Below are positions 30,795 through 55,518 of a stretch of 64,000 nucleotides of DNA, one piece after another. The position numbers were made by a program, and so were the translations under genes. Position 1 is the stretch's first letter; each line of letters starts with the position of its first letter. The DNA is taken from positions 1,889,040 to 1,953,039 of the forward strand of contig OY969934.1 in the NCBI GenBank assembly GCA_963704725.1, in the 5' to 3' direction. The notes under the pieces are model-generated. The model did not search any database, had not been told where the DNA came from, and was given only the letters and a program-made list of their open reading frames with translations. The DNA comes from an uncultured Actinomycetes bacterium (lineage in GTDB: Bacteria; Actinomycetota; UBA4738; HRBIN12).

Positions 30795-30881
30795 GTCGGA
30801 GTGGCGGAACTTGGTAGACGCGCTAGGTTGAGGGCCTAGTGACCTTCATTGGTCGTGGGGGTTCAAATCCCCCCTCCGACA
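30795..30881 (+). tRNA. tRNA-Leu (anticodon GAG), class II with long variable arm
   Basis: Hand-folded structure. 7-bp acceptor GTCGGAG/CTCCGAC. Anticodon stem CTAGG/CCTAG with loop TTGAGGG (anticodon GAG). 17-nt variable arm. T-arm GGGGG-TTCAAAT-CCCCC. Discriminator A. No encoded CCA. Confidence 0.85.
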
Positions 30882-32515
30882 CGAACCGTACGCACACCAC
30901 TCAAGTCCGCTTCCACCAGCACCCTTCGCTTGCTGGGCTCGTAGGTGAGTGACAGGCCGAGGCTCTCGTACAAGGCGGCTTTCTGCGCAGGTTCAGCCGC
31001 CCCCAGAACGCGGACGAGATCACCCAGGCTCTCAACCAGCGCCCGGATGTCGCCCTCGGTGAGTGCCGCCGTGTGACGCCGGTGGATCTCCCCCTCGGCC
31101 ATCCTGCGCTCGGCCTGGACCTCGGCGATCCACGCGGCGACGACGGCCGGGTCCGCGCCGGCATCGAGCGTCTCCCGGTAGCGGGCGAGTCGAGCGTCAC
31201 AGTCCGCGAGGGTCCGCCGAGCGCTCTCGTCGCGGTCACTCTCCGCGTCTGACGAATCCTGAGCCTCGGCGAGCGCGCGACAGGTCTCGTCCAGGCGGTC
31301 GGGCTCGAAGAGGCGCGAGATCCACTCGTCGAGCGGCGGGACGATGTGGGTCTCCCGGACGTACACCGTTGGCGGATGATCGGCTCCGCGGGGGAGCGCG
31401 TACTCCGAGGGGTAACGGCAGCGGTAGTACGCCTGGTCGTGGGTCCAGCTGCCTTGCATCCGGCGCTTGCAGAGTCCGCACCAAAGCAGGCCGCGGAGCA
31501 GGTAGGGGCGTGGTGTCCGGCGGGGCTTGCGGGTCGTGGTTCGCCCGTTGGCGACCCTCCGCACGCGGGCGGCTTCGAACAACTCCGGAGCGATCAGTGG
31601 CTCGTGCGCGAGGCCGGGGGAGCGGACCCAGGCCTCCTCGTCGTTCCATCGGAGCCGAGTCCTGTGACCCGCGGCGACGTCCTCGACGTCGACCAAGACC
31701 TCGTCGCGACGCTGCCGGCCCCAGACTGCCACTCCCGTGTACCGAGGGTTGGTCAGGACCGCCCGGACGGCACTCTTGCTCCAGCCCTGCCCGTTCCGGT
31801 GGGCGTTGCGACCCCGGTCATAGGCGGAGGGGGAGGAGATGCCGTCGCGGGTCAGAGCGTCTGCGATCGCGAAGAGGCCACGGCCCGACACGTACTCATC
31901 GAAGATCCGGACGACGATGTGCGCCGTGACGGGGTCGGGCTCGAGGTTGTGGATCCGGATGCCGAGGGCGGCCTTCCCCGGGTTGGGGTGAGGGCCTGCG
32001 TCCGCCAAGCGGTACCCGTACGGTGGGCGGCCGCCCAGGAATCGACCCTCGGTGGCGATCTGCGCGGCCATCGCGGTCCGGACCCTCGTTCGGATGCGGG
32101 AGCGCTCGCCTTTGCTCATGCCGCCGAACAGCGTCATGACCATGTCGTGGGCCTCGGAGCCCGGGTCGACCCGACCGCCGACCTCGGGGACCCACAGCTC
32201 GACGCCGTAGTGCTCGAAGAGCGGGAAGGTCAGGGCGAACTGAGCGCCGTAGAAGGCCCGCTGTGGCTCGCCGATGACGACGGCCTCGAAGCCGCGGTCC
32301 GGGGAACGAAGCAAGTCGAGCAGCCTGGAGGCTTCCGGCCTGCGCTTCCACGGGAGCGAGCGCGACTGTCCGATGTCGAAGAACTCGGCGACGATCTCGC
32401 CGCGCGCCGGCTCGACGTGCTCCAGGGCCCGCCGGAGCTGCCAGGCTCGCGAGGAGGCCGGGTCCTGCTGGTCCTCGGTCGAGACGCGTCCGTAAAAGGC
32501 AAAGGGCTTCGTCAT
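30863..32515 (-). CDS. Large serine recombinase (serine integrase)
   Basis: N-terminal resolvase catalytic domain (FAFYGRVSTEDQ ... nucleophilic Ser). Recombinase domain with a zinc-ribbon (CGLCKRRMQGSWTHDQAYYRCRY). C-terminal coiled-coil region. Stop codon lies inside the tRNA-Leu 3' end. Alternative start at 32539. Confidence 0.85.
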   Translation of the reverse strand: MTKPFAFYGRVSTEDQQDPASSRAWQLRRALEHVEPARGEIVAEFFDIGQSRSLPWKRRPEASRLLDLLRSPDRGFEAVVIGEPQRAFYGAQFALTFPLFEHYGVELWVPEVGGRVDPGSEAHDMVMTLFGGMSKGERSRIRTRVRTAMAAQIATEGRFLGGRPPYGYRLADAGPHPNPGKAALGIRIHNLEPDPVTAHIVVRIFDEYVSGRGLFAIADALTRDGISSPSAYDRGRNAHRNGQGWSKSAVRAVLTNPRYTGVAVWGRQRRDEVLVDVEDVAAGHRTRLRWNDEEAWVRSPGLAHEPLIAPELFEAARVRRVANGRTTTRKPRRTPRPYLLRGLLWCGLCKRRMQGSWTHDQAYYRCRYPSEYALPRGADHPPTVYVRETHIVPPLDEWISRLFEPDRLDETCRALAEAQDSSDAESDRDESARRTLADCDARLARYRETLDAGADPAVVAAWIAEVQAERRMAEGEIHRRHTAALTEGDIRALVESLGDLVRVLGAAEPAQKAALYESLGLSLTYEPSKRRVLVEADLSGVRTVRVGGGI

Positions 32516-32845
32516 CCGTGCTCCGCTCGGTGCTGGCATGCGAGCCGAGCCTGCATGTCTGATGTCGGCGGTTGAGCGCTCATCCTAGTGGCGTGTGGTG
32601 TCATCCCTCGGGCTCCGTCGGCCGGGCATGTTCGAGGACCTCCAACAGAATCCGCGCGGCTTTCGCTGTCAGCCAAGGCGGCTCCACTGGGATGGCCACC
32701 CGAAGTCGGACGTCATCGTCCACGACTTGCAGTTCCGACCTTCCATCGGACGGTGCGGCTTCCCGCTCCTCGCCCGAACCATGACCTACCGGCCCGCGTC
32801 CAGGGGGTTCGCGTTCGACCTGGCGCGCTTCGGCGCGCCCGCCCG

Positions 32846-33835
32846 TCAAGGAGCATGTCGGGGCGGAAGGGCGCGGAATCGGGGCGTGGCGGAGGCGGGG
32901 GAGATCCGGCGCCGGTGGCCGGGATCGGCGTCGGTGAAGTACCGGCCGAGGCATGGAGTTGTTCGGTAGAGGTCGCGGGATCGGGCCGCCAGGTCGACGA
33001 GCGAGAGGCGATCGCTGTCGGTTGGCACGTGCTTCCATGCCTGGCCGAGCACGCCGAGCCTGGTGAGCCGATCCTCGCTCGCCACGTGCAGCGGGAACGA
33101 GCTCGCGAGCGACCCGGAGGCATGCAGGCTCGTGGTCGCCGAGCGGTAGGCGGTGGCGACCTCCCCCTCACGCTCCTCCTCCGGGACCAGGACGAGGAGG
33201 TTCGGGAACCCGGCCAGTTCTTGCTCCCTCGTCCAACCCGCCGCGAGGCGCAGGTAGCCCTCGAGCTTGCGCGTGAGTGCGCCGCGTGCCTCGGTGGCCC
33301 GGTCGTACTCGAAGTAGAACTCGCACGAACCGCCGGGATGCAGGTACCGCCCGAAGCCGTCTGGCTTGATCTCCGCTGCCTTGGTCCGGACCCAGCGCTC
33401 GGGCCGCCAGGTGGCCAGACAATGGTCCTGGAAGGCCCTGGAGGCCTCGGCGAGGGCGCAGAAGAACGCGTTGACCCCCAGGCGGTGGGCGATGAGCTTG
33501 TTCGTCCGGTAGCTCGCATCGGGCACCCAGGGCAGGTCCGAGGTCCGGACGTCATTCGCATTTGCGATCTCGATGAGCCCTTCCTTCGTGAGGTGCCAGC
33601 ACGCGGGAGCCCTCCCCTCCCCGAAACCCCTCCCCACCGAGAAGGAGGAGACCAACCCCATCTCTTTCAGCTCCCTCATCCGGTGCTGGCACCTCCTGAG
33701 AGAGCGGAAGTGAAGGCTCGTGATCTGGTGCGTGGTGAGGATCTTGTGCTCGAGCATGCTGAGGAGGATCGCGAGGTCTCGCTCGTCGATCGCGCTCGCG
33801 CGCGCGCGATAGGTGTTTCGTTCTGCTCGAACCAT
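32846..33835 (-). CDS. Replication-relaxation family protein (actinobacterial integrative-element RepA/relaxase-like)
   Basis: About 329 aa from ATG at 33833-33835 (MVRAERNTYRARASAIDERDLAILLSMLEHKILTTHQITSLHF ... winged-helix N-terminus). Sits next to the serine recombinase. Confidence 0.6.
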   Translation of the reverse strand: MVRAERNTYRARASAIDERDLAILLSMLEHKILTTHQITSLHFRSLRRCQHRMRELKEMGLVSSFSVGRGFGEGRAPACWHLTKEGLIEIANANDVRTSDLPWVPDASYRTNKLIAHRLGVNAFFCALAEASRAFQDHCLATWRPERWVRTKAAEIKPDGFGRYLHPGGSCEFYFEYDRATEARGALTRKLEGYLRLAAGWTREQELAGFPNLLVLVPEEEREGEVATAYRSATTSLHASGSLASSFPLHVASEDRLTRLGVLGQAWKHVPTDSDRLSLVDLAARSRDLYRTTPCLGRYFTDADPGHRRRISPASATPRFRALPPRHAP

Positions 33836-35221
33836 GATTCGGGCACAGCCCTCCCCCCTCCTTCGGTGGGTGGCCTTCGGCGTAAAGGCCCCGTGACCTG
33901 GCCTTTTGCGCCATCGCACCCGGCGCGATCGCGCTGCCCACGCGCCGCGGCTCACGGCAGTGGGGCAGCGCGACGTCGCGCCAGGGCGCGTGCGCGCACT
34001 CCGCCAGATCGACGGATCTTCAGTTCGTGCCCGTGCTCACCTCCCTCCCCGCCGCTCGCACGGCGTTTCTCAGTCGCCGGCCGAGACTCGCCTTCGGCCG
34101 TCCGGCTCAGGGCTCTTTCGCGGTGATCCGCGTCCCCTCGCCGGCGCTTCAGTCCCGTTCGCTCGCCGTCCGAGCGCTCCTCCGGCCTCCGTTCGCTCCG
34201 AGCGCGCCTCCTCGTGAGGTGCCCGGGTTCGGGGCCGTCCTGATCGCTCGTCCGACGGCGTCCGTGATCGTGGCGCCGGCCTTGTCGCGCATCTCCGCTC
34301 GGTGCCCGGGCCGGTCGCCGGTGGCGAGGGAGCCGTCGCCCTCGGAGTCCTGCTCGCGGCCAAGCGGTGGATCGCCTGCACGTCTGCTGTTGTCTGCTCG
34401 ATCGTGGATGGTGCCGGTCCCCATTCAGTTCCTCCCGGCTCCACGTTTGCTCCACGTCTCGTGCCTGGAGATGGGTGAGGACAGTCGGCCGGGGCGCAGA
34501 GAAGACGTGGAGTTCGCCCGGGAGGAAGGGGGACGGGATGGGGACAGGCCCCTGGCGTCGGGCCTCTGCTCCACATGGTCGTGGTGCAGATGTAGAGACG
34601 GGTCGCCGGGGAGGGACAGGGCGGAGACACGTCTCCAGGCCCCGCGCTCCTGCCTGGAGGCCAACATGATGTTCGCGCCGCGGACGTCCATGATCCGTCG
34701 CCCCAGCCTGATGACGACAGACTCGCCGCTGGCAGACGGCAGCAGCGCGCGGTCTGGCCGAGCTTGATGGGTTGGTCATCCTCACCGGCACAAAGACAGG
34801 CAACGACCCGAACCTTGACGGCCAGGACCGAGAGTTCCGGGAAGATCCCGTGGCGACCGGCGGGCCCCACCCGGGTTCCGCACATGGGCCCGCCAGGTCG
34901 GCGCGTCGGGTCGCCCGCTGCCGATCCGATCGCGCGAGGGCTGGGCGGTAGGACCGAACCGGAACTCGATTGGCACCGGCCAAGAACCGGCGACGGCGGC
35001 CGCCGACAGGGCGGCCCCGCTAGAGCCCCGTTCGAGCCTGACCGCGACGGCGTGCTGAGCGTGATCATGTCCACCCGTACAAGGGCGCGGGAAGGCGCCC
35101 AGAGCGTGTCGGCCCACGCGGGGGAGTTCTGGGGGAGTCTCCGGAGGCGCAGGTCAGACCAGGTCTGGCCAGGGGTCTGCGGAGGGTTGGGGCGAAGGCG
35201 AGCTACTGATCGGCGAGGGGT

Positions 35222-35287
35222 TGACAGGCGGGATGGTTTCGCATTCAATCAACCCTCTAACAGGGGCTCACATAGTGGGGAGGCCGA
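35222..35287 (+). promoter_or_regulatory. Candidate promoter and Shine-Dalgarno for the Rhs toxin gene
   Basis: Consensus -35 TTGACA at 35222-35227, then a weak -10 candidate (CATTCAAT). Strong SD GGGGAGG lies 5 nt before the ATG at 35288. Confidence 0.45.
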
Positions 35288-38200
35288 ATGGTTTCGCTAC
35301 GTGTGTGCGCCCCGTGGTCCTCGTTCCGATCCCGTCCGATCTTCAGATCGCTCGGGCGTCTACGTGGGTCGATGATCTGTGGCCTCACGGTGGCTTCGCT
35401 CATTACCGTCGTGCTTCCAGTGCCCAGTGCAGTGGCGATCGCTCAGCAGGATGCCATCACCTACGTCTACGACGATCTGGGGAGACTCGAGGCCGTCGTC
35501 GATCCCGGCCAAACGAACGGCATCGCCCGCTACACGTATGACAGCGCCGGCAATCTCCTCTCGATCGCGAGGCAGAGCTCCACCGTCACCACGGTCCTGG
35601 ACTTCCAGCCGAAGACCACGACCCGCAGCTCCTCGGTCACCGTCTACGGGGCGGGGTTCAGCCCGACGGCGGGGCAGAACACCGTCCGGTTCGGTGGGCC
35701 GTCGGGCACCGCCGCGACGGTCGTCTCGGCGACAAAGACGCAGCTCCAGGTCACGGTGCCGGCCTCGGGCTCCGTCAACGGGACGGTCTTCGTCTCGAGC
35801 CCCGGCGGGAGCGCCACGAGCTCCCAGCAGTTCGCGCTCGACACGTCGACACCGCCGGCCATCACGGGGATCTCCGCCGCCGTCGCCACGATGGGATCGA
35901 CCGTCACCGTGACGGGCTCGGGCTTCGACCCTTCGGCACCGGCGATGAACAACGTCTTCCTGAACGGGATCAGGGCCCAGGTCACGGCGGCGACGGCGAC
36001 AACCCTCACCACCGTGGTGCCCCCGTTCCTCACGTCCGGACACGTCTCCGTCCAGACCCGCTGGGGCCAGGCGACCTCGATGAGCGACCTGTTCGTCCCG
36101 CCCGCCATCGACGGCGTGCCCTCCGCCGTCACCGATGTCGAGAGCACGGGACGCACGACCCTTGGTACGCCGACGGCGGTGAGCGTCACGACGCCGCAGA
36201 AGGTGGCCGTCCGGTCCTTCGACGGCACGCAGGGCGGCCGGGTCTTCATGGAGTTCTCGAGCCCGTCGGGGAACCAGGCCTGGCTGAGCCTGGTGGATCC
36301 GTTCGGCCGCGTGATGGGGAAGGACCTGATGACGACGGGCTTCCTGGAGCCCCGCACGCTGCCGGTGAGCGGGACCTACGAGGTCGTCGTCGACCCGATC
36401 GACACACAGACCGGCAACTTCACGTTCACCGCATTCGACGTCCCCGCCGACCTCTCGGGGACGATCACGCCCGACGGCGGACCGGTCGTGGCGAACATCA
36501 CCGCGAAGGGCCAGAACGCCGGCTACACCTTCACGGGCACGGCCAACCAACGCGTGTCCCTCCGGTTCAACGGTTCGGGGTGGACGGGGCTCTACTGGGT
36601 CCGCATCCTGCGGCCCGAGGGGATCGAGCTGACGAGCACGCTGAGCGTCTTCGGGTGGCAGGACCCGGTCACGCTGCCCGTCTCCGGCATCTACACGGTC
36701 GTGATCGACCCGATCGCTGGGGCCACCGGCTCCACGACTCTGACCGCCTACGACGTGCCGCCCGACAGCTCTGGGCCGATCCAGCCCAACGGCCCACCGG
36801 TGAACGTCACCGTCACGGCCGACAACGCGGGCCAGAACGCGAACCTGACCTTCGATTCGACCGTCAACCAGCAGGCGACGATCAACGTCACCGGCTCCAC
36901 GTTCCCGCAGGCCTACGCCCACCTCTACCTCGGGACCCCGCCGACGAACCCGATCTCGCTGAACCACCTGTTCCTCGGCGGGAACACCACGATCGGCCCC
37001 ATCTCCCTGTCCGCCGCGGGCAGCTACACCCTGGTGATCGACCCGATCGGCGGGTTCACGGGAAGCGCGAACATCGCGCTCACGCTGGCAGCGGGCCGTG
37101 CGACGCCGAGAGGGGGGCGGGGCGATCGCCTAAGGACGGACAGGCCGCCGTCCCCGCATTCACCGAGAGCAGCCACGGCGCTGGCCGGAGTCGTGCTCGG
37201 TCTGGACGGCTCGCCGCTCGCCGGCGTGAGCGTCGGCAGCGGAGACGTGGCAGGCGCGACCGACTCGAACGGCAGGTTCCGCCTTGCGGGCCTTCATGCC
37301 GGCCCGGGGGTCCTGGTCGTCGACGGGGCAAGCGCGTCGACCGAGGGCGCGAGCTACGGGCTGTTCCAGATCCAGGTCGAGCTCGAGCGCGGACGAACCA
37401 CGGAGCTCGGGTCCCCGGTGTGGATGCCGGAGCTCGACACGCGGCACGTCCGCCGCATCGCCAGCCCCACCCGGCGCGACGTCGTCCTTCGGACCCCGCT
37501 TGTTCCCGGGCTGCGGATCCAGATCCCGAAGGGGTCCTTGGTCAGGGATCTGGATGGTCGGGCGGTCCACGAGCTCTCGATCACGCCAGTTCCGATCGAC
37601 CGGCCACCGTTCCCGATGCCGGATGCGCCCGACTTCCCCATCTACTTCACCGTCCAGCCCGGTGGCGCCGCCGTCCTGCCCGAGGGTGCGCGGATCATCT
37701 ACCCGAATTCGGCGGCCCTGCCGGCCGGAACCGAGGTCCGGTACATGGACTACGAGCCCGCGGAGGACGGCTGGGAGTTCTACGGTCGTGGACGCGTCTC
37801 GCCCGATGGCATGCGGATCGTGCCCGATCCCGACACCCGGGTCCGTGCGTTCACCGGCTCCGCCTACCCGATCCCTCTCTACCTGTCGCCTCCGCTGGCA
37901 GATACGAACCCGCTCTCCGAGCTCGGCGAGCCCGTGGACCTGTCGACCGGGTTGTTCCACTACACGAAGACGGACCTCGCGCTGCCCGGCCCCATGCCGA
38001 TCCAGCTCACCCGGATCTACCGGCAAGGGGATCCGAACGCGGAGCCCTTCGGCCTCGGCATGACGTACAGCTACCAGTCCTATCTGAGCTGGGACTGGCC
38101 GTCCCCCGACAACCAGTGGAAGGACCTCATCCTTCCCGGCGGGGTCCGGGTGCACTTCGACCGGATCACCCCCGGGACCGACGTGGAGCACGCCGTCTAC

Positions 38201-41200
38201 GAGGCGACCGCTACACCGGGGCCGTTCTTCAAGTCCCGGATCAGCTGGGATCCGGTGCTGCGGTCCTGGCTCCTCACGCGGCGGGACGGCACGGTGATGG
38301 TCTTCGGGCTGGGGGGAAGCGGGAGCGCGTTGCGAGACGTGGCGGACCGGTACGGCAACCGCCTCGTGCTGATCGGGCCCGCCGGAACGAGTCCCCAGCC
38401 TGCCACGCAGATCGTCTCCTGGCCCTCGGGCAGGTGGATCAACCTGTCGATCTCGAACGGCCGGGTGACGCAGGCCACCGACGACCTGGGGCGGAGCGTC
38501 GGGTACGGCTACGACGGGCAGGGGCGCCTGGCGAGCGTGACCGACCCGAACCAGTTCGGCCAGCCCTCGCCGAAGTCGTCCATCTACGGCTGGGTCACCG
38601 ATCCCGACTGCACAAGTCCGGGATCCGTGCTCGCCACGATCACCGATCCCCGCAACATCACGTGGCTGTCGAACACCTACGGGCCCGGGTGCCGGGTTAC
38701 GCAGCAGACCGTCCCCACGGCGACGGGGACCGACGTCTACACGTTCGCGTACACGCCCTCGGGGCCCGGCGCCGTCACTCAGGCGGACATGACGGATCCC
38801 AACGGCAACGTGCACCGGGAGTCCTTCGACTCGACCGGCTACATGACGTCGGAGACCATCGCGCTGGGAACGCCGTCCGCGCGGACGTTCACGTACGAGC
38901 GGGACCCCACCAACCACCGCACCAGCGCCGTCGTCGATGCCTTCCACAACCGCAGGACCGAGTTCACGTACAACGCGTTCGGCCAGCCGACGTCCGTCAC
39001 CCGTCTTGCCGGCACCCCGCAGGCGGTCACCACGTCGTACACGTACGATCCGGTCTTCCGACAGCTGGAGACGATCACCGATCCACTCACCCACGTCACA
39101 CGCTTCGCGTACGACGCGGCGGGATGTCTCGACTCGGTCCAAGACCCGATGAGCCGGACGACCTTGTTCGACTGCAACGGTGCCGGTCAGATCACGCAGA
39201 TCACCGATCCGCTCACGCACGCGAGTGTGCTCTCCTACGCTCATGGAGACCTCACCTCAGCGACGGATCCGCTCGGTCGGACCACGTCTCGGTTCACCGA
39301 CGGCGGTGGGCGCGTCCTCGCGGTCACAGATCCGCTCAACCACCCGACGACCTACGCCTTCGACAAGCTGAACGAGCTCACCCAGGTCACCGATCCGATC
39401 GGCGGGCTCATCTCGTTCACCCTCGACGAAGACGGCAACCTCACCGAGGTGAACGACCAGCGCCGGGGATCGCCCAGCCGGACCGACCTCGTTTACAACA
39501 ACCTGAACCTGCCGAGCACTCGAACCGACCCACTCGGCCGTCAGGAGACGTTCACCTACGACGACCTCGGCAACCTGACGTTCTGGACCGACCGCAAGAA
39601 CCAGACGACGGAGTTCCGCTACGACGCACTCAACCAGCTGACGTTCGCGGGATACAAGCGGACGGCGGGGCCGGTTTACGAGTCCACGATCACCTACACG
39701 TGGGACGTCGGGAGCCGGCTGACGCAGATCGCGGACACGACAGCCAACGCCGGCACGATCACGCGGACCTACGATGACCTGGACCGGCTCACGAACGAGA
39801 CCTCGGTCAACGCTTCGGCCTCGGGGGTCACCTACACGTACAACCCCGATGACACCCGGGCGACGATGACCGTGCAGAACCAGACCCAGGTGCTCTACGG
39901 CTACAACCCGGCCGCCCAGCTCACGAGCCTCACCCAAGGCGGCCTGGTGGTCGGCCTGGACTACCTCGGCGACGGCAGGCTCCGCCAGGTCTCCCTCCCC
40001 TCCTCGCCGGTGCTCACGCAGACCTACGCGTACGACGCGGCGGGCGAGATCGCCTCGATCGCCTACCAACGCGGTACCGGCACCCCGGACGACCTCTCCT
40101 ACGGCTACGACCCGAGCGGGGCTCGGACCTCGGTCTTCGGCAGCTACGCCCGCACGGGGCTCCCCGCCGCCACGACGGCCACGGCCGTCTACAACGTCGC
40201 GAACCAGCTGACGTCGTGGAGCGGAGCCGCAGTGGCGAGCGACCTCAACGGCAACATGACGTCGCAGGCCGGGCTCACCTACGCGTACAACGCGCGCAAC
40301 CAGCTCACGAGCGTAAAGCAGAGCAAGACCACGCTCGGCGCCTTCGTCTACGACGGACTGGGCCGACGCGTGCGCCGCACGATCTCGTCCGCGGTCACGC
40401 GGCCCGTCTACGATGGGTGGAACGTGGTCCAGGAACGGAGCAGCGCGGGCTCGGTGACGGCGAACCTACTCGTGGGGCGCGGGCTGGATGACGTCTTCAC
40501 CCGGACCGAAACGGCCCAACGGGAGTTCTTGTCCGACGCTTTGGGCTCGACCGTCGCGCTTGCCGACACCTCCGGGGTGGTGCAGACCTCCTACACGTAC
40601 GAGCCGTTCGGCCGGACCACTGCCACCGGGGCGTCGAGTTCGAGCACTTACCAGTTCACGGGCAGGGAGAACGATTCGACGGGGACGCTCTCGCTCTACA
40701 ACCTGCGAGCCCGATACCTGTCGCCGACGTTGGCGAGGTTCATCAGCCAGGATCCGATAGGCCTCTCAAGCAGTGACGTCAACTTGTACGAGTACGCTGA
40801 TGACACGCCGACGGGCCGTATCGATCCGACCGGCCTCTTCAGCGTCTGGCCTCCAGTTGTTGGCCCAGACTTGAGCGTGCACGAGGTTGGCGGGGGCAAC
40901 CCAGCGGGTTGGGTTTGGGACAGCACAGTGGGAACCATCTCCCACCTGGATGACTGGTGGTCGATGGCACGGAAGGATTTTGAACGCCAATCCGAGTTCG
41001 TAAGGCGCGAAGGAGGGTGGATGGCCGATGACCTGTTCGGAGAGCACGGCATACTGACGTCGTTCGGTCAATGCTTGGTCGTCGGTTTGGACTACATGAT
41101 CCTCGCCACCAACGCGGGCCTGGACCCCGAGGATGCCGCTCTGTTCGGGCTAGTTGGCTGCGCGGTGGGGATGAACACTCCGCCGACGCCACCCATTACC

Positions 41201-41203
41201 TAG
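35288..41203 (+). CDS. Rhs/YD-repeat polymorphic toxin (1971 aa) with IPT/TIG-like domains, carboxypeptidase-regulatory-like domain, RHS core and a novel C-terminal domain
   Basis: Long signal-like N-terminus. N-terminal YD motif (YVYDDLGRLEAVVDPG ... YTYDSAGNLLSI). Several Ig-like/IPT segments (VTVYGAGFSPTAGQNTVRFGG). Dozens of YD repeats (e.g. YGYDGQGRLASVTDPN, FTYDDLGNLTFWTDRKNQ). RHS repeat-associated core (LYNLRARYLSPTLARFISQDPIGLSSSDVNLYEYADDTPTGRIDPTGL). It ends at 40837 and is followed by a 121-aa CT domain (40838..41200). Confidence 0.85.
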   Translation: MVSLRVCAPWSSFRSRPIFRSLGRLRGSMICGLTVASLITVVLPVPSAVAIAQQDAITYVYDDLGRLEAVVDPGQTNGIARYTYDSAGNLLSIARQSSTVTTVLDFQPKTTTRSSSVTVYGAGFSPTAGQNTVRFGGPSGTAATVVSATKTQLQVTVPASGSVNGTVFVSSPGGSATSSQQFALDTSTPPAITGISAAVATMGSTVTVTGSGFDPSAPAMNNVFLNGIRAQVTAATATTLTTVVPPFLTSGHVSVQTRWGQATSMSDLFVPPAIDGVPSAVTDVESTGRTTLGTPTAVSVTTPQKVAVRSFDGTQGGRVFMEFSSPSGNQAWLSLVDPFGRVMGKDLMTTGFLEPRTLPVSGTYEVVVDPIDTQTGNFTFTAFDVPADLSGTITPDGGPVVANITAKGQNAGYTFTGTANQRVSLRFNGSGWTGLYWVRILRPEGIELTSTLSVFGWQDPVTLPVSGIYTVVIDPIAGATGSTTLTAYDVPPDSSGPIQPNGPPVNVTVTADNAGQNANLTFDSTVNQQATINVTGSTFPQAYAHLYLGTPPTNPISLNHLFLGGNTTIGPISLSAAGSYTLVIDPIGGFTGSANIALTLAAGRATPRGGRGDRLRTDRPPSPHSPRAATALAGVVLGLDGSPLAGVSVGSGDVAGATDSNGRFRLAGLHAGPGVLVVDGASASTEGASYGLFQIQVELERGRTTELGSPVWMPELDTRHVRRIASPTRRDVVLRTPLVPGLRIQIPKGSLVRDLDGRAVHELSITPVPIDRPPFPMPDAPDFPIYFTVQPGGAAVLPEGARIIYPNSAALPAGTEVRYMDYEPAEDGWEFYGRGRVSPDGMRIVPDPDTRVRAFTGSAYPIPLYLSPPLADTNPLSELGEPVDLSTGLFHYTKTDLALPGPMPIQLTRIYRQGDPNAEPFGLGMTYSYQSYLSWDWPSPDNQWKDLILPGGVRVHFDRITPGTDVEHAVYEATATPGPFFKSRISWDPVLRSWLLTRRDGTVMVFGLGGSGSALRDVADRYGNRLVLIGPAGTSPQPATQIVSWPSGRWINLSISNGRVTQATDDLGRSVGYGYDGQGRLASVTDPNQFGQPSPKSSIYGWVTDPDCTSPGSVLATITDPRNITWLSNTYGPGCRVTQQTVPTATGTDVYTFAYTPSGPGAVTQADMTDPNGNVHRESFDSTGYMTSETIALGTPSARTFTYERDPTNHRTSAVVDAFHNRRTEFTYNAFGQPTSVTRLAGTPQAVTTSYTYDPVFRQLETITDPLTHVTRFAYDAAGCLDSVQDPMSRTTLFDCNGAGQITQITDPLTHASVLSYAHGDLTSATDPLGRTTSRFTDGGGRVLAVTDPLNHPTTYAFDKLNELTQVTDPIGGLISFTLDEDGNLTEVNDQRRGSPSRTDLVYNNLNLPSTRTDPLGRQETFTYDDLGNLTFWTDRKNQTTEFRYDALNQLTFAGYKRTAGPVYESTITYTWDVGSRLTQIADTTANAGTITRTYDDLDRLTNETSVNASASGVTYTYNPDDTRATMTVQNQTQVLYGYNPAAQLTSLTQGGLVVGLDYLGDGRLRQVSLPSSPVLTQTYAYDAAGEIASIAYQRGTGTPDDLSYGYDPSGARTSVFGSYARTGLPAATTATAVYNVANQLTSWSGAAVASDLNGNMTSQAGLTYAYNARNQLTSVKQSKTTLGAFVYDGLGRRVRRTISSAVTRPVYDGWNVVQERSSAGSVTANLLVGRGLDDVFTRTETAQREFLSDALGSTVALADTSGVVQTSYTYEPFGRTTATGASSSSTYQFTGRENDSTGTLSLYNLRARYLSPTLARFISQDPIGLSSSDVNLYEYADDTPTGRIDPTGLFSVWPPVVGPDLSVHEVGGGNPAGWVWDSTVGTISHLDDWWSMARKDFERQSEFVRREGGWMADDLFGEHGILTSFGQCLVVGLDYMILATNAGLDPEDAALFGLVGCAVGMNTPPTPPIT

Positions 41204-41209
41204 TCATCG

Positions 41210-41656
41210 ATGACACACGAAGAGAAAGACGAGAAGCGTCAGCGCAAAGGACCGTTGATGCACGATCCGTCAGAGGATGTTCGACGACGCCACGCCATCC
41301 TGCTGATTGTCGTGGGGCTCGGACTCCTAAGCGTCGGCACCGTCTCTTGGGTGCGAGGCGGCTCACCGGCGGCCATGGCTTCCATGATTCCCGGACTTGC
41401 GGGAGTGCTCGGAGGTCTCCTGCTCCTCGCTCGCCGGGGCCTAATCCTCCGCCCTACCGCGAGGTTTCTGAGCATCCAGCCCGACGTCTTGCTGAAGCTC
41501 TCGGTGGTGGCTCTGGCGGCGGCTTCAGCTGTGTACCTCGGCTGGGTAGCGGTTGTTCAGTACCGCCAGGGTAGGGCGGACGCGGGATTGACCGTCGTGA
41601 TGGCGGCACTGAGCATCTACGTGACAATTCGGGCTTTCACCAACCTTCGCCGATAG
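41210..41656 (+). CDS. Putative Rhs-toxin immunity protein, 4-TM membrane protein
   Basis: 148 aa starting 7 nt after the Rhs stop codon. Four predicted TM helices (AILLIVVGLGLLSVGTV, MIPGLAGVLGGLLLLA, LLKLSVVALAAASAVYLGWVAVV, LTVVMAALSIYVTIRAF). Lowest GC in the window (about 53%). Confidence 0.55.
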   Translation: MTHEEKDEKRQRKGPLMHDPSEDVRRRHAILLIVVGLGLLSVGTVSWVRGGSPAAMASMIPGLAGVLGGLLLLARRGLILRPTARFLSIQPDVLLKLSVVALAAASAVYLGWVAVVQYRQGRADAGLTVVMAALSIYVTIRAFTNLRR

Positions 41657-41934
41657 GACGGTTACCGGCCGTCGCTCTTCGCGGTTGGCAGGTGCAGAGG
41701 CCGGGACGCACTCAGGATGCGTGACGAGAACCTTAACAGGGGAACCGGTTCACACATCGTCCAGCAAGGTCCACGATTGGGCACCTGTGTGACCACCGCG
41801 GCCGTCCCTGCGACGGACTTGACCGCCACTGGTGGGGTTTACGGGCCGAATCACGCTGAGAGGCGAAGTTCACCTCGAAGGACGAGCCGCGTACGTATGG
41901 TCGTCGACGGTCCTCCGACACCACTGTGATGTGT

Positions 41935-43205
41935 CGGGTGCATCGTGGCCGGATGTGTCGGTGCATCGTAGCCGCCCTCACGAGGCTTGAGGCTGGTAGT
42001 CGCGGGCCGGGTCCAGTGTGAGATGTCGAAGCAGCTCTCCGTTCGCCGACACCACCCGCACGTCCAGACCGTTGATCAGCAGGATCACCCGCTTGCCCTT
42101 GTGAGCGTGACCCACGCCGATGTGGTGCAGCCGCGTTCCATGGCGCAGCGTGACCTTCCCGCCCTTGTCGATCCGGTCCCGACGCACCCGAACGCCCGCA
42201 CCCACGCGGATCCTGGGTCCTGAGGGACGCGCCTTGTCTCTGGCCTCGAACGCCGCTCTGGGCGGCCTGCGGCCCAGCGCTGCATGCGGCCTGCGGTCGT
42301 TGTAGTAGGCGACGAACCGATCGACCTGGTCTTGCAGCTCACCGAGCGAGCTGGCCTTGGGCTGACGGGCCAGGTAGGTCTTCATCGTCTGGTGGAAGCG
42401 CTCGACCTTGCCGCAGGTCTGGGGGTGATAGGGCCGGGAGTGACGGTAGTCGATACCGAGCGCCAGCAGCTCGGTCTGCATCACGTTGGGCCCTCCCCGG
42501 TGCCACGTCGTGTAGACGCAGCCGTTGTCGGTCAAAAGCGCCGCCGGGAACCCCCAGCGCGCGCCGGCTTCGCGGAAGACCTCGAGCACCTTGGGGGCGG
42601 TGGCGGTCCGCATCACCACCGAGGCCACGGCCGCCCGGGAGTGGTCATCCAGGAAGTTGCAGATGTCGACCTCGGTCCCATCCCCAAGCCGCCAGTGGGT
42701 CACGTCGGACTGCCAGCACTCGTTGGGAAGCGTGGCCTCGAAGCGGATCCAGGAGCTCCGGGGCCGCTTGTGGGGCTGGGAGACCACGAAGCCACGACGT
42801 CTCAGCACCCGCCAGATCGTCGAGATCGACGGCACCCGGTCGTGCCTCGTGCTCAGGTGGTAGGCGATCGTGGCCGCGCCGGCATCCACGCCCAGCTCCG
42901 TGAGCTCCGTGCGCAGGGCGCAGATCTCGTCCTCGAGCGCATGCAGGCGTGCGGTGCGGGATCGTCTTGGGCGCCCTCGACCGCGGGGCGATCGCCTCGT
43001 AGCCGCCCGATCGGTACCGGGCGACCAGCTTGCCGACCCAGCTCTTGGAGACCCCGTGGGCCCGGGCCACCTCCCGGTAGCTCCGTCCCTCCAGCACGAC
43101 CGCGTCCACCACGTAGCGAGCCAGATCCATCGCAGACCCCCGTTGAAGGTGTCCACGATGCTCCGACACATGTGTCCACTATCCGGTGAACTCAGGCACC
43201 CCCTC
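41935..43205. mobile_element. IS481-family insertion sequence (about 1.27 kb), boundaries approximate
   Basis: Imperfect terminal inverted repeats TGTGTCGGGTGCATCGTGG (41940-41958) and CCACGATGCTCCGACACA (43162-43179, reverse complement TGTGTCGGAGCATCGTGG). Flanked by 13-bp direct repeats CCTCCGACACCAC (41922-41934 and 43207-43219). Internal DDE transposase gene. Confidence 0.6.
41978..43169 (-). pseudogene. IS481-family DDE transposase, frameshifted
   Basis: N-terminal HTH part is in one frame (start 43169; MDLARYVVDAVVLEGRSYREVARAHGVSKSWVGKLVARYRSGGYEAIAPRSRAPKTIPHRTP). The remainder is shifted by 1 from about 42955 (ARLHALEDEICALRTELTELGVDAGAATIAYHL ... integrase core with D..D..E: WQSDVTH, LTDNGCVYT, CGKVERFHQTMK), ending at the stop 41978-41980. 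Confidence 0.7.
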
Positions 43206-43281
43206 CGACACCACCTGTCCACTATCCGCTGAGGTCGAATCGGGGCCCAGGTGAACCACGCCCGCGTCGTACAGTGCCTCG

Positions 43282-43608
43282 GTGTCGTCGAAAGGGGTGA
43301 GGCGGATGGTCGCGGTCGGATTGCTCGTCCCATTGAAGGCGAAGCCCGGCAAGGAGGATGACGTGGCGCGATTCCTCGAGGGCGGGCTCGCGCTCGTCAA
43401 CGAGGAACCGGCGACGACGGCGTGGTTCGCGATCCGGCTCGGCCCGTCCGAGTTCGCGATCGTGGACTTCTTCCCGGACGACGCGGGCCGGCAGGCGCAT
43501 CTGTCGGGCCGGGTGGCCGAGGCCCTGATGGCCCAGGCCCCCGATCTGTTCGCCGAGGCGCCCGACATCCGACCGGCTGACGTCATCGCCGCCAAGCTTC
43601 CCGGGTAG
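43282..43608 (+). CDS. Antibiotic-biosynthesis-monooxygenase (ABM/Dabb) domain protein
   Basis: About 100 aa ferredoxin-like fold candidate (VAVGLLVPLKAKPGKEDDVARFLEGGLALVNEEPATTAWFAIRL). Start may be 43306. Confidence 0.45.
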   Translation: MSSKGVRRMVAVGLLVPLKAKPGKEDDVARFLEGGLALVNEEPATTAWFAIRLGPSEFAIVDFFPDDAGRQAHLSGRVAEALMAQAPDLFAEAPDIRPADVIAAKLPG

Positions 43609-43619
43609 GAGGCTTCCGG

Positions 43620-44847
43620 CTACGCGGCGCCGTGCCGAACGGCGACCTGCCCTGCGACGATCGCGGCGTCCTCGCCGATGCCGAACAGCAGCGACGACTT
43701 CCGGGTCCGCAGGAAGTGGACCCCCACGAAGTACAGACCCGGGGAGGCCGAGCTCGCCCCGTCGGCGTGGACGGGGAAGCCGAGGTCGTCGAACGCCCCC
43801 GGCACCCGCACCCAACGCCGATAGTCGGGTCGGAAGCCGCCCGCGAACAGGACGGCGCCGAAGCCGGTCAGGTCCAGCTCCTCGGGCGAGCTGTCCTCGA
43901 ACGGGTCGGGCTCCGGGATGCCCGGCATCGGGAGGTCGCGCTCCTCGACCAGCTTGCGGATCAGGCCGGCGAACTGCCGGTAGCGCTCGTCGCCCCAGGC
44001 GACCGTCTCCGCCAGATCGGGAGCGAACCGGGCCCGGCGACCCTCGGCGCCGATGAAGTGGCCGAGCAGGGTGACGCCGTCGGCGCGGAGCGTTCGGTAG
44101 TGGAGGTCGTGCCCGCCCCCGCGGCCGGTGCCCTGGAGGTTGGCGAACAGCCGGGCCGAGGGATCGGGGAGCGCCGAAAGCGGTTGATCCAGGAACCCCG
44201 TCTCGACCGACCACCAGAACATGTCCCGGTCTCCCAGCCGGCGGGGCGACCACGGCGACCGTCCGCAGGCCAGGAACACCTCCCGGCCGACCATCCGGAG
44301 CTCCTCGGCGAGCTGGCAGCCCGTCTGGCCGCTCCCGATCACCAGCACCTGGCCGTCGGGCAGCCCCTGCGGGTTCCGGTAGTCCTGCGCGTCGAGCGCA
44401 AGCAGGTCCGGCGGGAGCGAGGACGCGGCGGCGGGACGGTGCGGCCACTGGTAGGCGCCGGTGGCCACGACGACGGATCTCGCCAGGATCTCGGCGCCGA
44501 TCGTCGTCCGGAGTCGGAACCGCTCGGCCGCCGGCTCCAAGGAGGACACGTCGACCTCTTCGCGGATCGGTGCCGGAAGGCCACGCGCGTAGCCCTCGAG
44601 GTACGCCACGAGCTCCTCACGCGGCAGGTACCCATCCGGGTCGTCGCCGTCGTACTCGCCGCCCGGAAGCTTGACGGACCAGTTCGGCGTCACGAGACAG
44701 AAGCTGTCCCACCGGCCTCGCCAGGACTCGGCCACCCGCCCTCGCTCCAGGACGACGTGCTCCAAGCCCGCCCGCGACAGCTCGTGGCTGGTGGCGAGCC
44801 CGGCCTGTCCGCCTCCCACGACGACGACGTCGATACGCTCCGCCATG
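43620..44847 (-). CDS. FAD/NAD(P)-binding oxidoreductase (flavin-containing monooxygenase-like)
   Basis: ATG at 44845-44847. Two Rossmann dinucleotide motifs (VVVGGGQAGLATSHEL and VLVIGSGQTGCQLAEEL). The 875-aa ORF-track entry is an out-of-frame extension. Confidence 0.7.
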
Positions 44848-44993
44848 GGTGTGGAGGCTATCGCAGCGCCGGCTCGACGCCGGCGAACAGGCGTTCGCGA
44901 GCCGGCCGACGCCCCCCAACACGGAGCCGCCCGGGAAGCGGCGTGGCAAGATGGTGCACGCGCGAAACGACACCCGAGGACGGGGGATCGACG

Positions 44994-46934: not shown

Positions 46935-46937
46935 CGC

Positions 46938-48005: not shown

Positions 48006-48014
48006 CGGTCCCTC

Positions 48015-50381: not shown

Positions 50382-50395
50382 CCCGAGCTCCTCCG

Positions 50396-51925: not shown

Positions 51926-52460
51926 CGCGTCTCGTCTTGCACGATCAGGCTCGGATCCGCGAGCAGGGCACCCACGTCGAGCACCGACAGCAGGTCGGCG
52001 GTGACGCCGCGGATGATCTCGGCCCCCCCGCGACTCCGCTCGGTCATCGACGTGTCGAGCTCCCCCAGCGCCACCCGGGCGATCTCGGCGGCGTCGTCCA
52101 CGAGCAGGGCGACGACGTGGCCCTGGTCGCCGACGACGACCAGGTGGGCGGCGGCGGGCGGGCTGCCGTCGATCCCCAGGCGGGCCCGCAGATCGAGGAC
52201 CGGCACCACGGTGCCCCGCAGGTTGACGAGGCCGGCCCAGGCGACCGGCGTTCCGGGCACGGCGACGAGCTCGAAGAGCGGGCGGATCTCCTCGACGTTC
52301 GCGACGTCGATCCCGTAGCGCTCGTTGCCGACCGTGACGACGACGAGCGGTCGGGATTCCACGACCTCATCGGGCGTGGGCGGCGTGGCGAGCGCACGAG
52401 CCCGCTGCTCGAGGACGAGCCGCAGCGAGGCGGCCCCGGGGTCGTGGAGGGGAGCGCTCA
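51922..52460 (-). CDS. cheW: Chemotaxis coupling protein CheW
   Basis: 179 aa from ATG 52458-52460 ([21 protein letters not shown] ... [16 protein letters not shown]). The ORF-track 256-aa entry over-extends the N-terminus. Confidence 0.85.
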
Positions 52461-52463
52461 TCG

Positions 52464-54360: not shown

Positions 54361-54458
54361 AGGACACCCCGCTAGCTGCTTTCATCTACCTATCGGAGGT
54401 GGGGCAGTCCGTCTAAAGGCGTACATCGAACGGACCGAGTACCTAGGGGAAGGTTTCC

Positions 54459-55484: not shown

Positions 55485-55518
55485 GGCGCTCCGCCGGCGT
55501 CGGCTAGCATCCCCCGGC

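What the first reader, a model, noticed from the sequence alone, without database searches (positions are those of the whole stretch)
30795..43220. About 12 kb lower-GC integrative island inserted at the 3' end of tRNA-Leu(GAG)
The stop codon of a large serine recombinase gene (30863) lies inside the tRNA-Leu 3' end (30795..30881), the classic attL geometry of tRNA-targeting integrative elements. A replication-relaxation family protein follows directly. The island then carries a 1.3 kb gene-poor stretch, an Rhs polymorphic toxin with an immunity gene, and an IS481 copy. Spot GC counts fall from about 72% in flanking housekeeping DNA to about 53-65% inside the island (41221-41280 is about 53%). 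The tRNA 3'-end motif CCCCTCCGACAC (30870-30882) recurs at 43206-43218 and CCTCCGACAC at 41922-41931, giving candidate attR remnants. A recombinase plus replication-relaxation pair resembles actinobacterial integrative elements. No conjugation genes are present, so this could be a decayed or satellite element.
Basis: partly seen in the sequence, partly recalled or inferred. Interest (0 to 1): 0.75.

Follow-up and report, generated by a model that had tools for sequence, protein, structure and literature searches.

The report
Serine-integrase island at tRNA-Leu gene
An 11-kb mobile island, inserted by a large serine recombinase at the 3' end of a tRNA-Leu gene in an uncultured soil actinobacterium, carries an Rhs toxin and lies beside an insertion sequence that targets tRNA gene ends; the kind is known, but a serine recombinase using a tRNA gene is rare.

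Summary
tRNA-Leu(GAG) lies at 30795-30882. An intact large serine recombinase (LSR) gene ends at a TGA inside the tRNA T-loop. A Replic_Relax (MOB_C-type) gene, a 1.3-kb stretch without ORFs, an Rhs toxin, a four-helix membrane protein and an IS481-family IS follow.

Comparison with related loci fixes the ends. The attL core CCTCCGACAC is at 30873-30882. The attR core is at 41912-41921, preceded by a P arm conserved in four other elements. The element is about 11.0 kb (30883-41921).

The third copy of the motif (43202-43211) is the far target duplication of the IS (41925-43201). That IS lies outside the element. Its relatives sit at the 3' ends of six different tRNA/tmRNA genes.

About 30 related genomes keep opp-secG-tRNA-Leu but lack the island genes. 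Related LSRs occupy the same tRNA with other cargo. 76 of the 120 closest homologues end in a tail encoded by a tRNA T-arm.

The "low GC" claim is weak: 68.1% against 70.1% for the window. Only the Rhs tip and the membrane-protein gene are clearly low (61-62%).

Best reading: a serine-integrase integrative, probably mobilizable, element carrying competition cargo. It is a new variant of a known kind, of moderate interest.

The parts
30795..30882 (+). tRNA-Leu(GAG), the integration target. It is intact after integration.
   Evidence: ARAGORN; Rfam RF00005, 52.3 bits. The opp-secG-tRNA-Leu synteny is conserved in about 30 related genomes.
30873..30882 (.). attL core CCTCCGACAC, the last bases of the tRNA gene. 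The B arm (tRNA T-arm) lies to its left. The P' arm (GAACCGTACGCACACC..., the 3' end of the LSR gene) lies to its right.
   Evidence: The same junction occurs in L084, L099/L100, L102/L103 and L015.
30863..32539 (-). Large serine recombinase gene. The likely start is 32515, giving 550 aa. The catalytic motif YGRVSTEDQ and the zinc-ribbon cysteines are present. The last five codons and the stop lie in attL and the tRNA.
   Evidence: Pfam Resolvase, Recombinase and Zn_ribbon_recom; translation; P0001 is 100% identical at 550 aa.
32846..33955 (-). Replic_Relax (PF13814) protein, a candidate MOB_C-type relaxase. By homology the start is probably near 33808.
   Evidence: Pfam E=3.9e-36, covering profile positions 4-189 of 191. 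Orthologues lie next to the LSR in L081 and L102/L103. PF13814 = CONJScan MobC in PMC5357655.
33956..35287 (.). Stretch without credible ORFs, 70% GC. Possibly decayed genes or an oriT/regulatory region; function unknown.
   Evidence: ORF translations are low-complexity and Arg-rich. No Rfam match. No similarity to related elements beyond about 34235.
35288..41203 (+). Rhs/YD-repeat polymorphic toxin. A probable Sec signal peptide begins at M29 (nt 35372). The core ends with PTGRIDPTGL. The 121-aa C-terminal tip (40838-41203) has no known family.
   Evidence: Pfam RHS_repeat E=8e-50, DUF6531, TIG; NCBIfam YD_repeat_2x and Rhs_assc_core; motif position; no Pfam hit for the tip.
41210..41656 (+). 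148-aa protein with about four hydrophobic helices, a candidate immunity protein. With the Rhs tip it forms the only clearly low-GC part (61-62% GC; GC3 0.70-0.74).
   Evidence: Translation; composition.
41746..41921 (.). Conserved non-coding right end. It holds the P arm (about 80 nt) and the attR core CCTCCGACAC at 41912-41921.
   Evidence: 77-79% identity to two copies in L085, plus a 29-nt block at 96.5%. Five-way alignment with L084, L085 (two copies) and L015; L102. Reconstructed attP and attB.
41925..43201 (-). IS481-family insertion sequence, 1277 bp, outside the LSR element. Its ends are TGTGATGTG... and ...CTCAGGCACC (the C before the flanking repeat may belong to either). The transposase is frameshifted near nt 42940.
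   Evidence: Pfam rve and rve_3; NCBIfam transpos_IS481; frames. 75% nt identity to the IS at the same place in L102. Ends fixed by copies at other tRNA genes.
43200..43214 (.). Far-side target duplication of the IS (CCCCTCCGACACCAC). Its partner is 41910-41924 (GTCCTCCGACACCAC; 13 of 15 identical). Host DNA resumes at 43215.
   Evidence: Perfect 15-bp duplications flank other copies of this IS.

Best explanation
The segment 30883-41921 is an integrative genetic element of about 11.0 kb. Its own large serine recombinase (LSR) placed it at the 3' end of tRNA-Leu(GAG). The element's attP and the host's attB share a 10-11-bp block, (C)CCTCCGACAC, which is the 3' acceptor end of the tRNA. The tRNA therefore stays intact.

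Shown:
- attL is tRNA T-arm + core + LSR 3' end. attR is a conserved P arm + core + host flank.
- The LSR ORF runs across attL and stops at a TGA supplied by the tRNA T-loop.
- Related genomes have the same tRNA locus without these genes.
- Related LSRs occupy the same site with entirely different cargo.

Inferred:
- The crossover lies inside the shared block. The exact dinucleotide is unknown.
- The Replic_Relax protein is a MOB_C-type relaxase. If so, the element is an integrative mobilizable element that borrows another element's mating apparatus.
- The Rhs toxin and the downstream membrane protein are a secreted toxin/immunity pair. They would serve inter-bacterial competition and make the island costly to lose.

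The neighbouring IS481-family IS (41925-43201) is an independent element. It targets the 3' ends of tRNA and tmRNA genes and makes duplications of about 15 bp. Its far duplication is the third copy of the tRNA-end motif. Because the IS replaces the host (B') arm of attR 3 bp beyond the core, it has probably reduced or abolished excision of this copy.
For: Anatomy.

Empty or differently filled sites: 36 related loci were examined and about 30 carry opp-secG-tRNA-Leu. None has the LSR, Replic_Relax, Rhs or IS downstream. In L021, L050 and L003 a HAD-hydrolase gene follows the tRNA within 0.8-2.6 kb; its window homologue is at 58.9 kb.

Same site, same junctions: L084 (LSR 82% identical), L099/L100 (82%) and L102/L103 (71%) all show secG-tRNA-Leu-LSR. 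L015 keeps an 80-nt relic of the LSR 3' end plus an attR-like site 1 kb away.

attR: the P arm plus core is conserved in the window, L084, L085 (two copies), L015 and L102. It is followed by host tRNA-downstream sequence in L084 and L085.

Clade-wide: 76 of the 120 closest LSR homologues end in VG[GE]G[IT], a tail encoded by a tRNA T-arm.

Cargo differs between elements: Rhs here; a ResIII-like helicase in L084; giant kinase-STAND-WD40 proteins in L099 and L101; a HerA-like ATPase in L102.

Replic_Relax = MobC class: PMC5357655.

IS.
Against: - No excised circle or truly isogenic empty site was found for this element. The nearest relatives are different species (86% or less identity on a conserved ATPase).
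- Thirteen metagenome contigs carry an attP-like junction. Most have truncated or interrupted LSR genes and none is demonstrably circular.
- No recombination directionality factor, oriT or coupling protein was identified.
- Relaxase function of PF13814 proteins in Actinomycetota is untested. The same family has been linked to plasmid replication and described as a predicted regulator (PMC3424549).
- Compositional contrast is small.
- The IS flanks are asymmetric: P-arm type on the left, tRNA type on the right. This suggests the LSR integrated next to a pre-existing IS, without a normal B' arm, which is unexpected for a serine integrase (notebook).
- L107 looks like an element-free version of L104 (1 mismatch in 1832 nt). 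It could equally come from recombination between IS copies or from chimeric assembly.
Confidence: 0.8

Rival explanations
1. A reduced actinomycete integrative-conjugative or plasmid-derived element. Replic_Relax would be a replication initiator rather than a relaxase. The element would replicate as an episome after excision, and it has lost its FtsK/TraB-like transfer gene.
For: PF13814 was first linked to plasmid replication as well as relaxation (PMC3424549). The host is an actinobacterium. The 1.3-kb ORF-free stretch could be a decayed transfer gene. The relative L102 has a 619-aa P-loop ATPase beside Replic_Relax.
Against: There is no FtsK/SpoIIIE, RepSA/RepAM, Nudix or Spd gene in the window's element or in any relative examined. 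The L102 ATPase matches anti-phage HerA (1e-14 to 3e-23). Its matches to coupling proteins are weak: TrwB_AAD_bind E=0.015 and TraD E=0.056.
Confidence: 0.12
2. The island is larger, or there are several. Everything between the tRNA and the HAD-hydrolase gene (30.9-58.8 kb) would be accessory DNA accreted at a tRNA hotspot. The LSR element would be only the newest layer.
For: In L021, L050 and L003 the HAD homologue lies 0.8-2.6 kb from the tRNA. In L006 the flavin-monooxygenase homologue lies 4.3 kb from it. Sequence just downstream of the tRNA differs in nearly all relatives, and several contigs break at the tRNA.
Against: 43.2-58.8 kb has host-like GC (72%), GC3 (0.90-0.93) and tetranucleotide usage. 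It encodes a chemotaxis cluster, a transporter and an alpha-amylase, with no mobility genes. No further copy of the core exists in the window. The relatives are distant species, so the difference may be ordinary loss of synteny.
Confidence: 0.15
3. A prophage remnant. Large serine recombinases are typical phage integrases, so the rest of a prophage would have been deleted.
For: LSR domain architecture. Small LSR-bearing prophage-like elements are known in actinobacteria (for example phiRv1; own knowledge).
Against: No phage structural, lysis or replication gene occurs in this element or in any of about nine related elements. The viral contig collection has no attP match. A relaxase-class gene is conserved beside the LSR instead.
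Confidence: 0.03

Closest known systems
Integrative and mobilizable elements (IMEs) with a serine recombinase, such as the Tn4451 family and streptococcal IMEs (review PMC5704250)
   Same: Small size. A single large serine recombinase serves as the integration module. A relaxase-class gene is present but no mating-pore genes. Cargo is variable. Streptococcal IMEs with a PF13814/MobC relaxase are described (PMC5357655).
   Different: Described serine-recombinase IMEs come from Firmicutes. They usually insert inside dispensable protein genes and disrupt them, flanked by very short repeats. This element sits at a tRNA gene 3' end with a 10-11-bp shared block that preserves the gene. Its host is an uncultured actinobacterium; the 2017 review lists only one actinobacterial IME. 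No transfer has been shown.
tRNA-gene genomic islands integrated by tyrosine integrases (classic attL geometry)
   Same: The target is the 3' end of a tRNA gene. The tRNA end is regenerated. The integrase gene lies next to attL. The site acts as a hotspot with different cargo in different genomes.
   Different: The enzyme is a serine recombinase, not a tyrosine recombinase. The shared block is only 10-11 bp, not the usual 15-60 bp. In the TIGER survey only 14 of 297 serine-integrase elements used a t(m)RNA gene, and the authors asked for experimental proof (PMC7192596).
SCCmec and the Ccr recombinases
   Same: Large serine recombinases insert a non-conjugative cargo island at the extreme 3' end of a conserved housekeeping gene without inactivating it. 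NCBIfam gives weak CcrB/CcrC similarity.
   Different: The target there is rlmH (orfX), not a tRNA. Similarity is far below the family cut-offs (25 bits against 900). SCC elements have no relaxase-class gene.
Gram-positive Rhs/WapA-type toxin-immunity modules
   Same: A Sec-type signal peptide, YD/RHS repeats, Rhs_assc_core, a PxxxxDPxGL boundary, a short variable C-terminal tip and an adjacent small immunity-like gene of lower GC.
   Different: The tip has no recognised toxin family. The module is carried inside a site-specific integrative element. Toxicity and immunity are untested.
IS481-family insertion sequences with about 15-bp target duplications
   Same: DDE transposase with HTH, rve and rve_3 domains; a TGT terminus; about 1.3 kb. 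A subset of IS481 members makes duplications of about 15 bp (PMC10045372).
   Different: Every copy examined abuts the 3' end of a tRNA or tmRNA gene, or a copy of such an end, in one orientation. I found no description of this in the searched library.

Membership tests
Large serine recombinase (serine integrase) | N-terminal resolvase catalytic domain with the nucleophile serine | tested here: met
   PF00239 E=2.4e-11 at residues 14-162. The motif YGRVSTEDQ is present.
Large serine recombinase (serine integrase) | C-terminal Recombinase domain plus zinc ribbon (with coiled-coil region) | tested here: met
   PF07508 E=6e-21 and PF13408 E=1.9e-7. The coiled coil was not examined.
Large serine recombinase (serine integrase) | Catalyses attP x attB recombination with a 2-bp crossover | not testable with these tools
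   attL, attR and reconstructed attP/attB share a 10-11-bp block. The crossover position and the activity need experiments.
Integrative genetic element / genomic island | Bounded by attL and attR that are hybrids of element and host arms | tested here: met
   B arm + core + P' at 30873-30882. P arm + core at 41912-21. The P arm is conserved in L084, L085, L015 and L102, and host-type B' follows it in L084 and L085.
Integrative genetic element / genomic island | Absent from the same locus in related genomes | tested here: met
   About 30 related genomes carry opp-secG-tRNA-Leu. Among 36 related loci examined, none has the island genes. They are different species, so no isogenic empty site is available.
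Integrative genetic element / genomic island | Excised circular form (attP junction) detectable | tested here: inconclusive
   No match in viral contigs. Thirteen metagenome contigs have an attP-like junction. Most have truncated LSR genes and none shows terminal overlap.
Integrative and mobilizable element (IME) | Encodes its own relaxase and/or oriT but no mating-pore (T4SS) genes | tested here: inconclusive
   A PF13814 gene is present. It is equated with the MobC relaxase class only through PMC5357655. No T4SS genes were found. No oriT was identified.
Integrative and mobilizable element (IME) | Transfer depends on a helper conjugative element | not testable with these tools
   The host is uncultured and no helper element is present in the window.
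Actinomycete integrative and conjugative element (AICE) | FtsK/SpoIIIE-like Tra protein and a replication module (RepSA, RepAM or prim-pol) | tested here: not met
   None of the Pfam scans of all candidate ORFs between 30.8 and 43.3 kb gave such a hit. Relatives lack them too.
Rhs polymorphic toxin | YD/RHS repeats, an Rhs-associated core ending in PxxxxDPxGL, and a variable C-terminal tip | tested here: met
   The tip is 121 aa with no family hit.
Rhs polymorphic toxin | Cognate immunity protein encoded immediately downstream | tested here: inconclusive
   A 148-aa membrane protein starts 7 nt after the Rhs stop. It matches no family beyond a sub-threshold DUF6249 hit.
IS481 family | DDE transposase matching the IS481 profile, with TGT terminus and flanking target duplication | tested here: met
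   NF033577 E=1.6e-55; the score of 188.6 bits is below the 224-bit cut-off because only the C-terminal frame was scored. The terminus is TGTGATG. The flanking repeat is 13 of 15 bp. This copy is frameshifted.

The most novel reading that the evidence does not exclude
This LSR clade would be a dedicated tRNA-gene-targeting family of serine integrases. Its attB recognition would rest almost wholly on the conserved tRNA half-site, because it appears to have integrated next to a tRNA whose downstream arm had already been replaced by an IS end. It would share that safe harbour with an abundant IS481 lineage that itself homes to the 3' ends of many tRNA and tmRNA genes and rebuilds them with a 15-bp duplication. 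That would mean two unrelated recombination chemistries converging on the same few bases.
Probability: 0.3. Interest if true: 0.65.

Novelty: new variant of a known kind. Interest (0 to 1): 0.45.

Why it matters
Serine integrases are the main tools of genome engineering, yet they are seldom linked to tRNA genes. The largest survey I found counted 14 such cases among 297 and asked for proof (PMC7192596).

Here a whole clade sits at one tRNA 3' end. Four independent full-length occupancies were seen, and most of the 120 closest homologues show the signature. The att arms can be written down, so an attP x attB assay is immediately possible. The target is conserved across a broad group of uncultured soil Actinomycetota.

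The family also shows how small integrase-plus-relaxase platforms move toxin and apparent defence cargo in these organisms.

The neighbouring IS offers a second testable question: how does a DDE transposase find tRNA gene ends?

Tried and rejected
- Exact-protein look-ups of the window's LSR (two versions) and SecG found nothing. The source record and any sister strains could not be retrieved.
- The IS was not found at the DNA level in the plasmid collection, apart from one weak Arthrobacter hit.
- A crossover in the anticodon loop was considered because L081 and L085 carry only a tRNA 3' half beside the LSR. I rejected it. No displaced tRNA 3' half exists in the window. The attR sites share only the last 10-11 nt with the tRNA. 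Those two loci are better explained by other events at a duplicated or disrupted tRNA.
- The idea that the IS was carried inside attP was rejected. The bases after the core in both flanking repeats are host-type (CAC in the window, CC in L102), not P'-type (GAA).
- The L102 ATPase was tested as a coupling or TraB-like protein. It matches anti-phage HerA instead.
- The Replic_Relax protein has no solved relative by sequence and no NCBIfam or PADLOC hit.
- Rfam found nothing in the ORF-free stretch.
- PADLOC hits to cargo in relatives are at domain level only, so "defence island" stays a suggestion.

Full report
**1. What is in the sequence**

ARAGORN finds one tRNA in the window, tRNA-Leu(GAG), at 30795-30882 on the plus strand. 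Rfam agrees at 52.3 bits.

To its left lie housekeeping genes. These include pgk, a five-gene oligopeptide ABC transporter and a 74-aa SecG.

To its right, on the minus strand, is an ORF at 30863-32539 with Resolvase, Recombinase and Zn_ribbon_recom domains. The serine motif YGRVSTEDQ is intact. Its stop codon is the complement of the TCA in the tRNA T-loop.

The following features come next:
- A Replic_Relax (PF13814) gene at 32846-33955, E=3.9e-36.
- 1.3 kb with no believable ORF and no Rfam match.
- A 1971-codon Rhs protein at 35288-41203. It has a probable signal peptide, TIG domains, DUF6531, RHS repeats, the Rhs-associated core and the boundary motif PTGRIDPTGL. A 121-aa tip of no known family follows.
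- A 148-aa protein with about four hydrophobic helices at 41210-41656.
- An IS481-family transposase on the minus strand. It carries one frameshift near codon 62-65.

**2. Composition**

The "lower-GC island" is mostly not there. The element is 68.1% GC and the window is 70.1%. The right flank is 71.6%, but the opp operon on the left is only 66.4%.

Only the Rhs tip (61.2%), the next gene (62.4%) and the right-end non-coding DNA (63.6%) stand out. That pattern is usual for swapped Rhs tip/immunity modules.

GC3 of the LSR and Replic_Relax genes is 0.85-0.86, against 0.92-0.98 for host genes. Tetranucleotide distance is raised over 30-44 kb, and also over the opp operon. Composition is therefore supporting evidence at most.

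**3. Where the element ends**

The 10-mer CCTCCGACAC, the last bases of the tRNA gene, occurs three times on the plus strand: at 30873, 41912 and 43202. The expected number is 0.6, and 1 of 100 shuffles reaches 3.

Chance alone would not settle this, so I used related sequences.

A scan of one genome per species with the adjacent ABC ATPase returned 80 loci. About 30 of them, all uncultured Actinomycetota, carry the same opp-secG-tRNA-Leu(GAG) arrangement. Among 36 related loci examined, none has the LSR, Replic_Relax, Rhs or IS downstream of the tRNA.

Downstream sequences differ in almost every genome, and several contigs stop at the tRNA. In L021, L050 and L003 a HAD-hydrolase gene follows the tRNA within 0.8-2.6 kb. 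Its window homologue is at 58.9 kb.

LSR homologues are plentiful, with thousands at E<1e-30. The contexts of those I looked up:

| Locus | LSR identity | Context |
|---|---|---|
| L084 | 82% | secG-tRNA-Leu-LSR, same junction ...CCCCCCTCCGACAC/GAACCG... |
| L099/L100 | 82% | same arrangement and junction |
| L102/L103 | 71% | same arrangement; the sequence after the core differs (GATCTTG...) |
| L015 | relic | about 80 nt of LSR 3' end beside the tRNA |

At the other end, window 41845-41922 is 77-79% identical to two segments of L085. Each of those ends in CCTCCGACAC.

L084, L015 and L102 each have one further copy of the core on the far side of the LSR. It is preceded by a similar arm (consensus ...GGTTCG.c.ACGGyC). 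In L084 and L085 it is followed by the terminator-like sequence that lies downstream of the tRNA in unoccupied relatives.

This is the hybrid-site architecture expected of site-specific integration:
- attL = B arm (tRNA T-arm) + core + P' (LSR 3' end).
- attR = P arm + core + B'.

attP and attB can be reconstructed for five elements. They share a block of 10-11 bp. The P arm carries GGTTC at the same distance from the core as the GGTTC of the tRNA T-loop.

The window's element is therefore 30883-41921, about 11.0 kb. The L084 element is about 5.2 kb.

**4. The stop codon in the tRNA**

The LSR ORF reads through P', the core and into the B arm, giving the tail ...RVGGGI*.

Of the 120 closest homologues, 76 end in VG[GE]G[IT]. 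Among the 35 closest, 29 do. I read this as a signature of integration next to a tRNA T-arm of this type.

In the excised form the ORF would instead run on into the P arm for about 20 more codons. This is derived from the sequence and was not tested.

**5. Cargo and core genes**

Only the LSR is common to all the relatives examined. Replic_Relax is present in the window, L081-83 and L102/103.

| Element | Cargo |
|---|---|
| Window | Rhs plus membrane protein |
| L084 | ResIII-like helicase fragment |
| L099, L101 | 1434-1925-aa BTAD-kinase-STAND-WD40 proteins; L101 also Hen1 and Pnkp |
| L102 | HerA-like ATPase |
| L089 | nucleotidyltransferase-like pair, judged from the sequence alone; PADLOC gave no supporting hit |

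PADLOC gives only domain-level matches for these proteins. "Competition/defence cargo" is a reasonable description, not a demonstrated one.

**6. What Replic_Relax implies**

Coluzzi et al. list PF13814 as the domain of the MobC relaxase class in streptococcal IMEs (PMC5357655). Steczkiewicz et al. place it in the PD-(D/E)XK fold (PMC3424549).

No mating-pore, FtsK-like or replication gene is present in the element or its relatives. The closest known category is therefore an integrative mobilizable element with a serine recombinase.

The 2017 IME review states three relevant things (PMC5704250):
- Such elements are known from Firmicutes.
- They usually disrupt dispensable genes.
- Only one IME was then known from Actinobacteria.

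Mageeney et al. found t(m)RNA use in 4.9% of serine-integrase elements, against 44.5% for tyrosine integrases. They noted it had not been reported before and needed proof (PMC7192596). I found no paper in the library linking a serine integrase to tRNA-Leu.

**7. The IS and the third repeat**

The IS spans 41925-43201. L102 has an IS that is 75% identical, in the same place and orientation. Similarity starts in the P arm and stops right after the second core.

The bases following the core in both flanking repeats are host-type, so the IS was not carried in attP.

The repaired transposase has hundreds of homologues at 81-88% identity in soil metagenomes. I fetched copies for three exact protein variants.

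In all 15 loci the TGTGATG end lies 2-4 nt beyond sequence that reads as the 3' end of a tRNA or tmRNA gene. ARAGORN calls the gene itself in most of them; the exceptions are contigs that break off there and L115, which it does not call. The genes are:
- tRNA-Leu(GAG)
- tRNA-Ala(GGC)
- tRNA-Ser(GCT)
- tRNA-Val(GAC)
- tRNA-Tyr(GTA)
- tmRNA

Five loci show perfect duplications of 15-16 bp made of the tRNA end plus 3 nt.

Duplications of about 15 bp are known for part of the IS481 family (PMC10045372). I found no report of tRNA-end targeting.

In L104-106, L108 and L111 the IS sits in attL, between the tRNA and the LSR.

The window's third motif copy is thus the IS duplication, and host DNA resumes at 43215.

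**8. Loose ends**

- **Asymmetric IS flanks.** In the window and in L102 the outer two bases of the left repeat are P-arm type and those of the right repeat are tRNA type. With a 15-bp duplication, this fits an IS that arrived first and an LSR element that later integrated between the tRNA and the IS. That would mean integration without a normal B' arm. Alternatively the duplication was only 13 bp.
- **L107.** It equals L104 minus the LSR element, with 1 mismatch in 1832 nt and the breakpoint at the core. This could be excision, recombination between two IS copies, or a chimeric assembly. L116-L118 have mismatched flanks, which shows such joins occur.
- **attP-like junctions.** The 13 metagenome contigs carrying them are mostly decayed and not circular.
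- **L081 and L085.** They have only a tRNA 3' half beside the LSR.
- **The flank at 43215-43234.** It resembles the IS's own subterminal sequence.

**9. Verdict**

The finding is real and its interpretation is essentially correct. It is a serine-integrase integrative element, probably mobilizable, at the 3' end of tRNA-Leu(GAG), carrying an Rhs toxin module. A separate tRNA-end-seeking IS has probably crippled its attR.

It belongs to a known kind of element. Two features are unusual: a serine integrase clade devoted to a tRNA gene, and a DDE insertion sequence converging on the same bases. Interest is moderate.

Noticed in passing
window 41925-43201; loci L102, L104-L124: The IS481-family IS belongs to a very abundant soil lineage. 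In all 15 fetched loci its TGTGATG end lies 2-4 nt past sequence that reads as the 3' end of a tRNA or tmRNA gene (Leu-GAG, Ala-GGC, Ser-GCT, Val-GAC, Tyr-GTA, tmRNA), always in the same orientation; ARAGORN calls the gene in most of them. Duplications of 15-16 bp rebuild the gene end. I found no report of this targeting in the literature searched.
   Followed up: partly
window 41910-41924 vs 43200-43214; L102 3960 vs 2672: The two IS flanking repeats differ in their outer two bases: P-arm type on the left, tRNA type on the right. This holds in both the window and L102. It suggests the LSR element integrated next to a tRNA whose downstream arm was already an IS end.
   Followed up: partly
L104 vs L107 (JGI samples 3300037704 and 3300037482): Two contigs differ by 1 base in 1832 nt across IS-tRNA-secG and diverge exactly at the att core. 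One continues into the LSR and the other into host flank. This is either a natural presence/absence polymorphism or an assembly or IS-recombination artefact.
   Followed up: partly
window 30863-30882 and 120 LSR homologues (P0001-P0120): The LSR's last codons and its stop come from the host tRNA. 76 of 120 homologues share the tail VG[GE]G[IT]. In the excised form the protein would be about 20 residues longer.
   Followed up: partly
window 43215-43234 vs 43173-43191: The host flank just after the IS duplication (CTGTCCACTATCCGCTGAGG) resembles the IS's own subterminal right end (TGTCCACTATCCGGTGAAC). It may be a relic of an earlier IS copy.
   Followed up: no
L081 11660-11700; L085 11515-11572: In two relatives the LSR abuts only the 3' half of tRNA-Leu, starting at the anticodon loop (TTGAGGG). 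L085 also has two attR-like sites, and L018 has two tandem tRNA-Leu(GAG) genes. This points to repeated events at this locus.
   Followed up: partly
window 43216-58870: 15.6 kb separates the island from the HAD-hydrolase gene that follows the tRNA closely in some relatives. It encodes an ABM-like protein, a flavin monooxygenase, an S9 peptidase, a cheB-cheA-MCP-cheR-cheW cluster, a GGDEF response regulator, an Asp-Al_Ex transporter and an alpha-amylase. Its composition is host-like.
   Followed up: partly
L087/L088, L092/L096, L094/L097/L098, L101: A recurrent second left-hand context, ...CCACTC(C/A)GGATGGCA.TTCG.GGACTTCGGyCCTCCGACAC, is joined to the LSR 3' end. It is read through by several homologues (tail VGGPKSP...). 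It may be a shorter P arm (true attP or tandem copies) or an alternative target.
   Followed up: no
window 42937-42950: There is a single frameshift in the IS transposase relative to the intact 390-aa L102 orthologue. It is either a pseudogene or an assembly error.
   Followed up: partly
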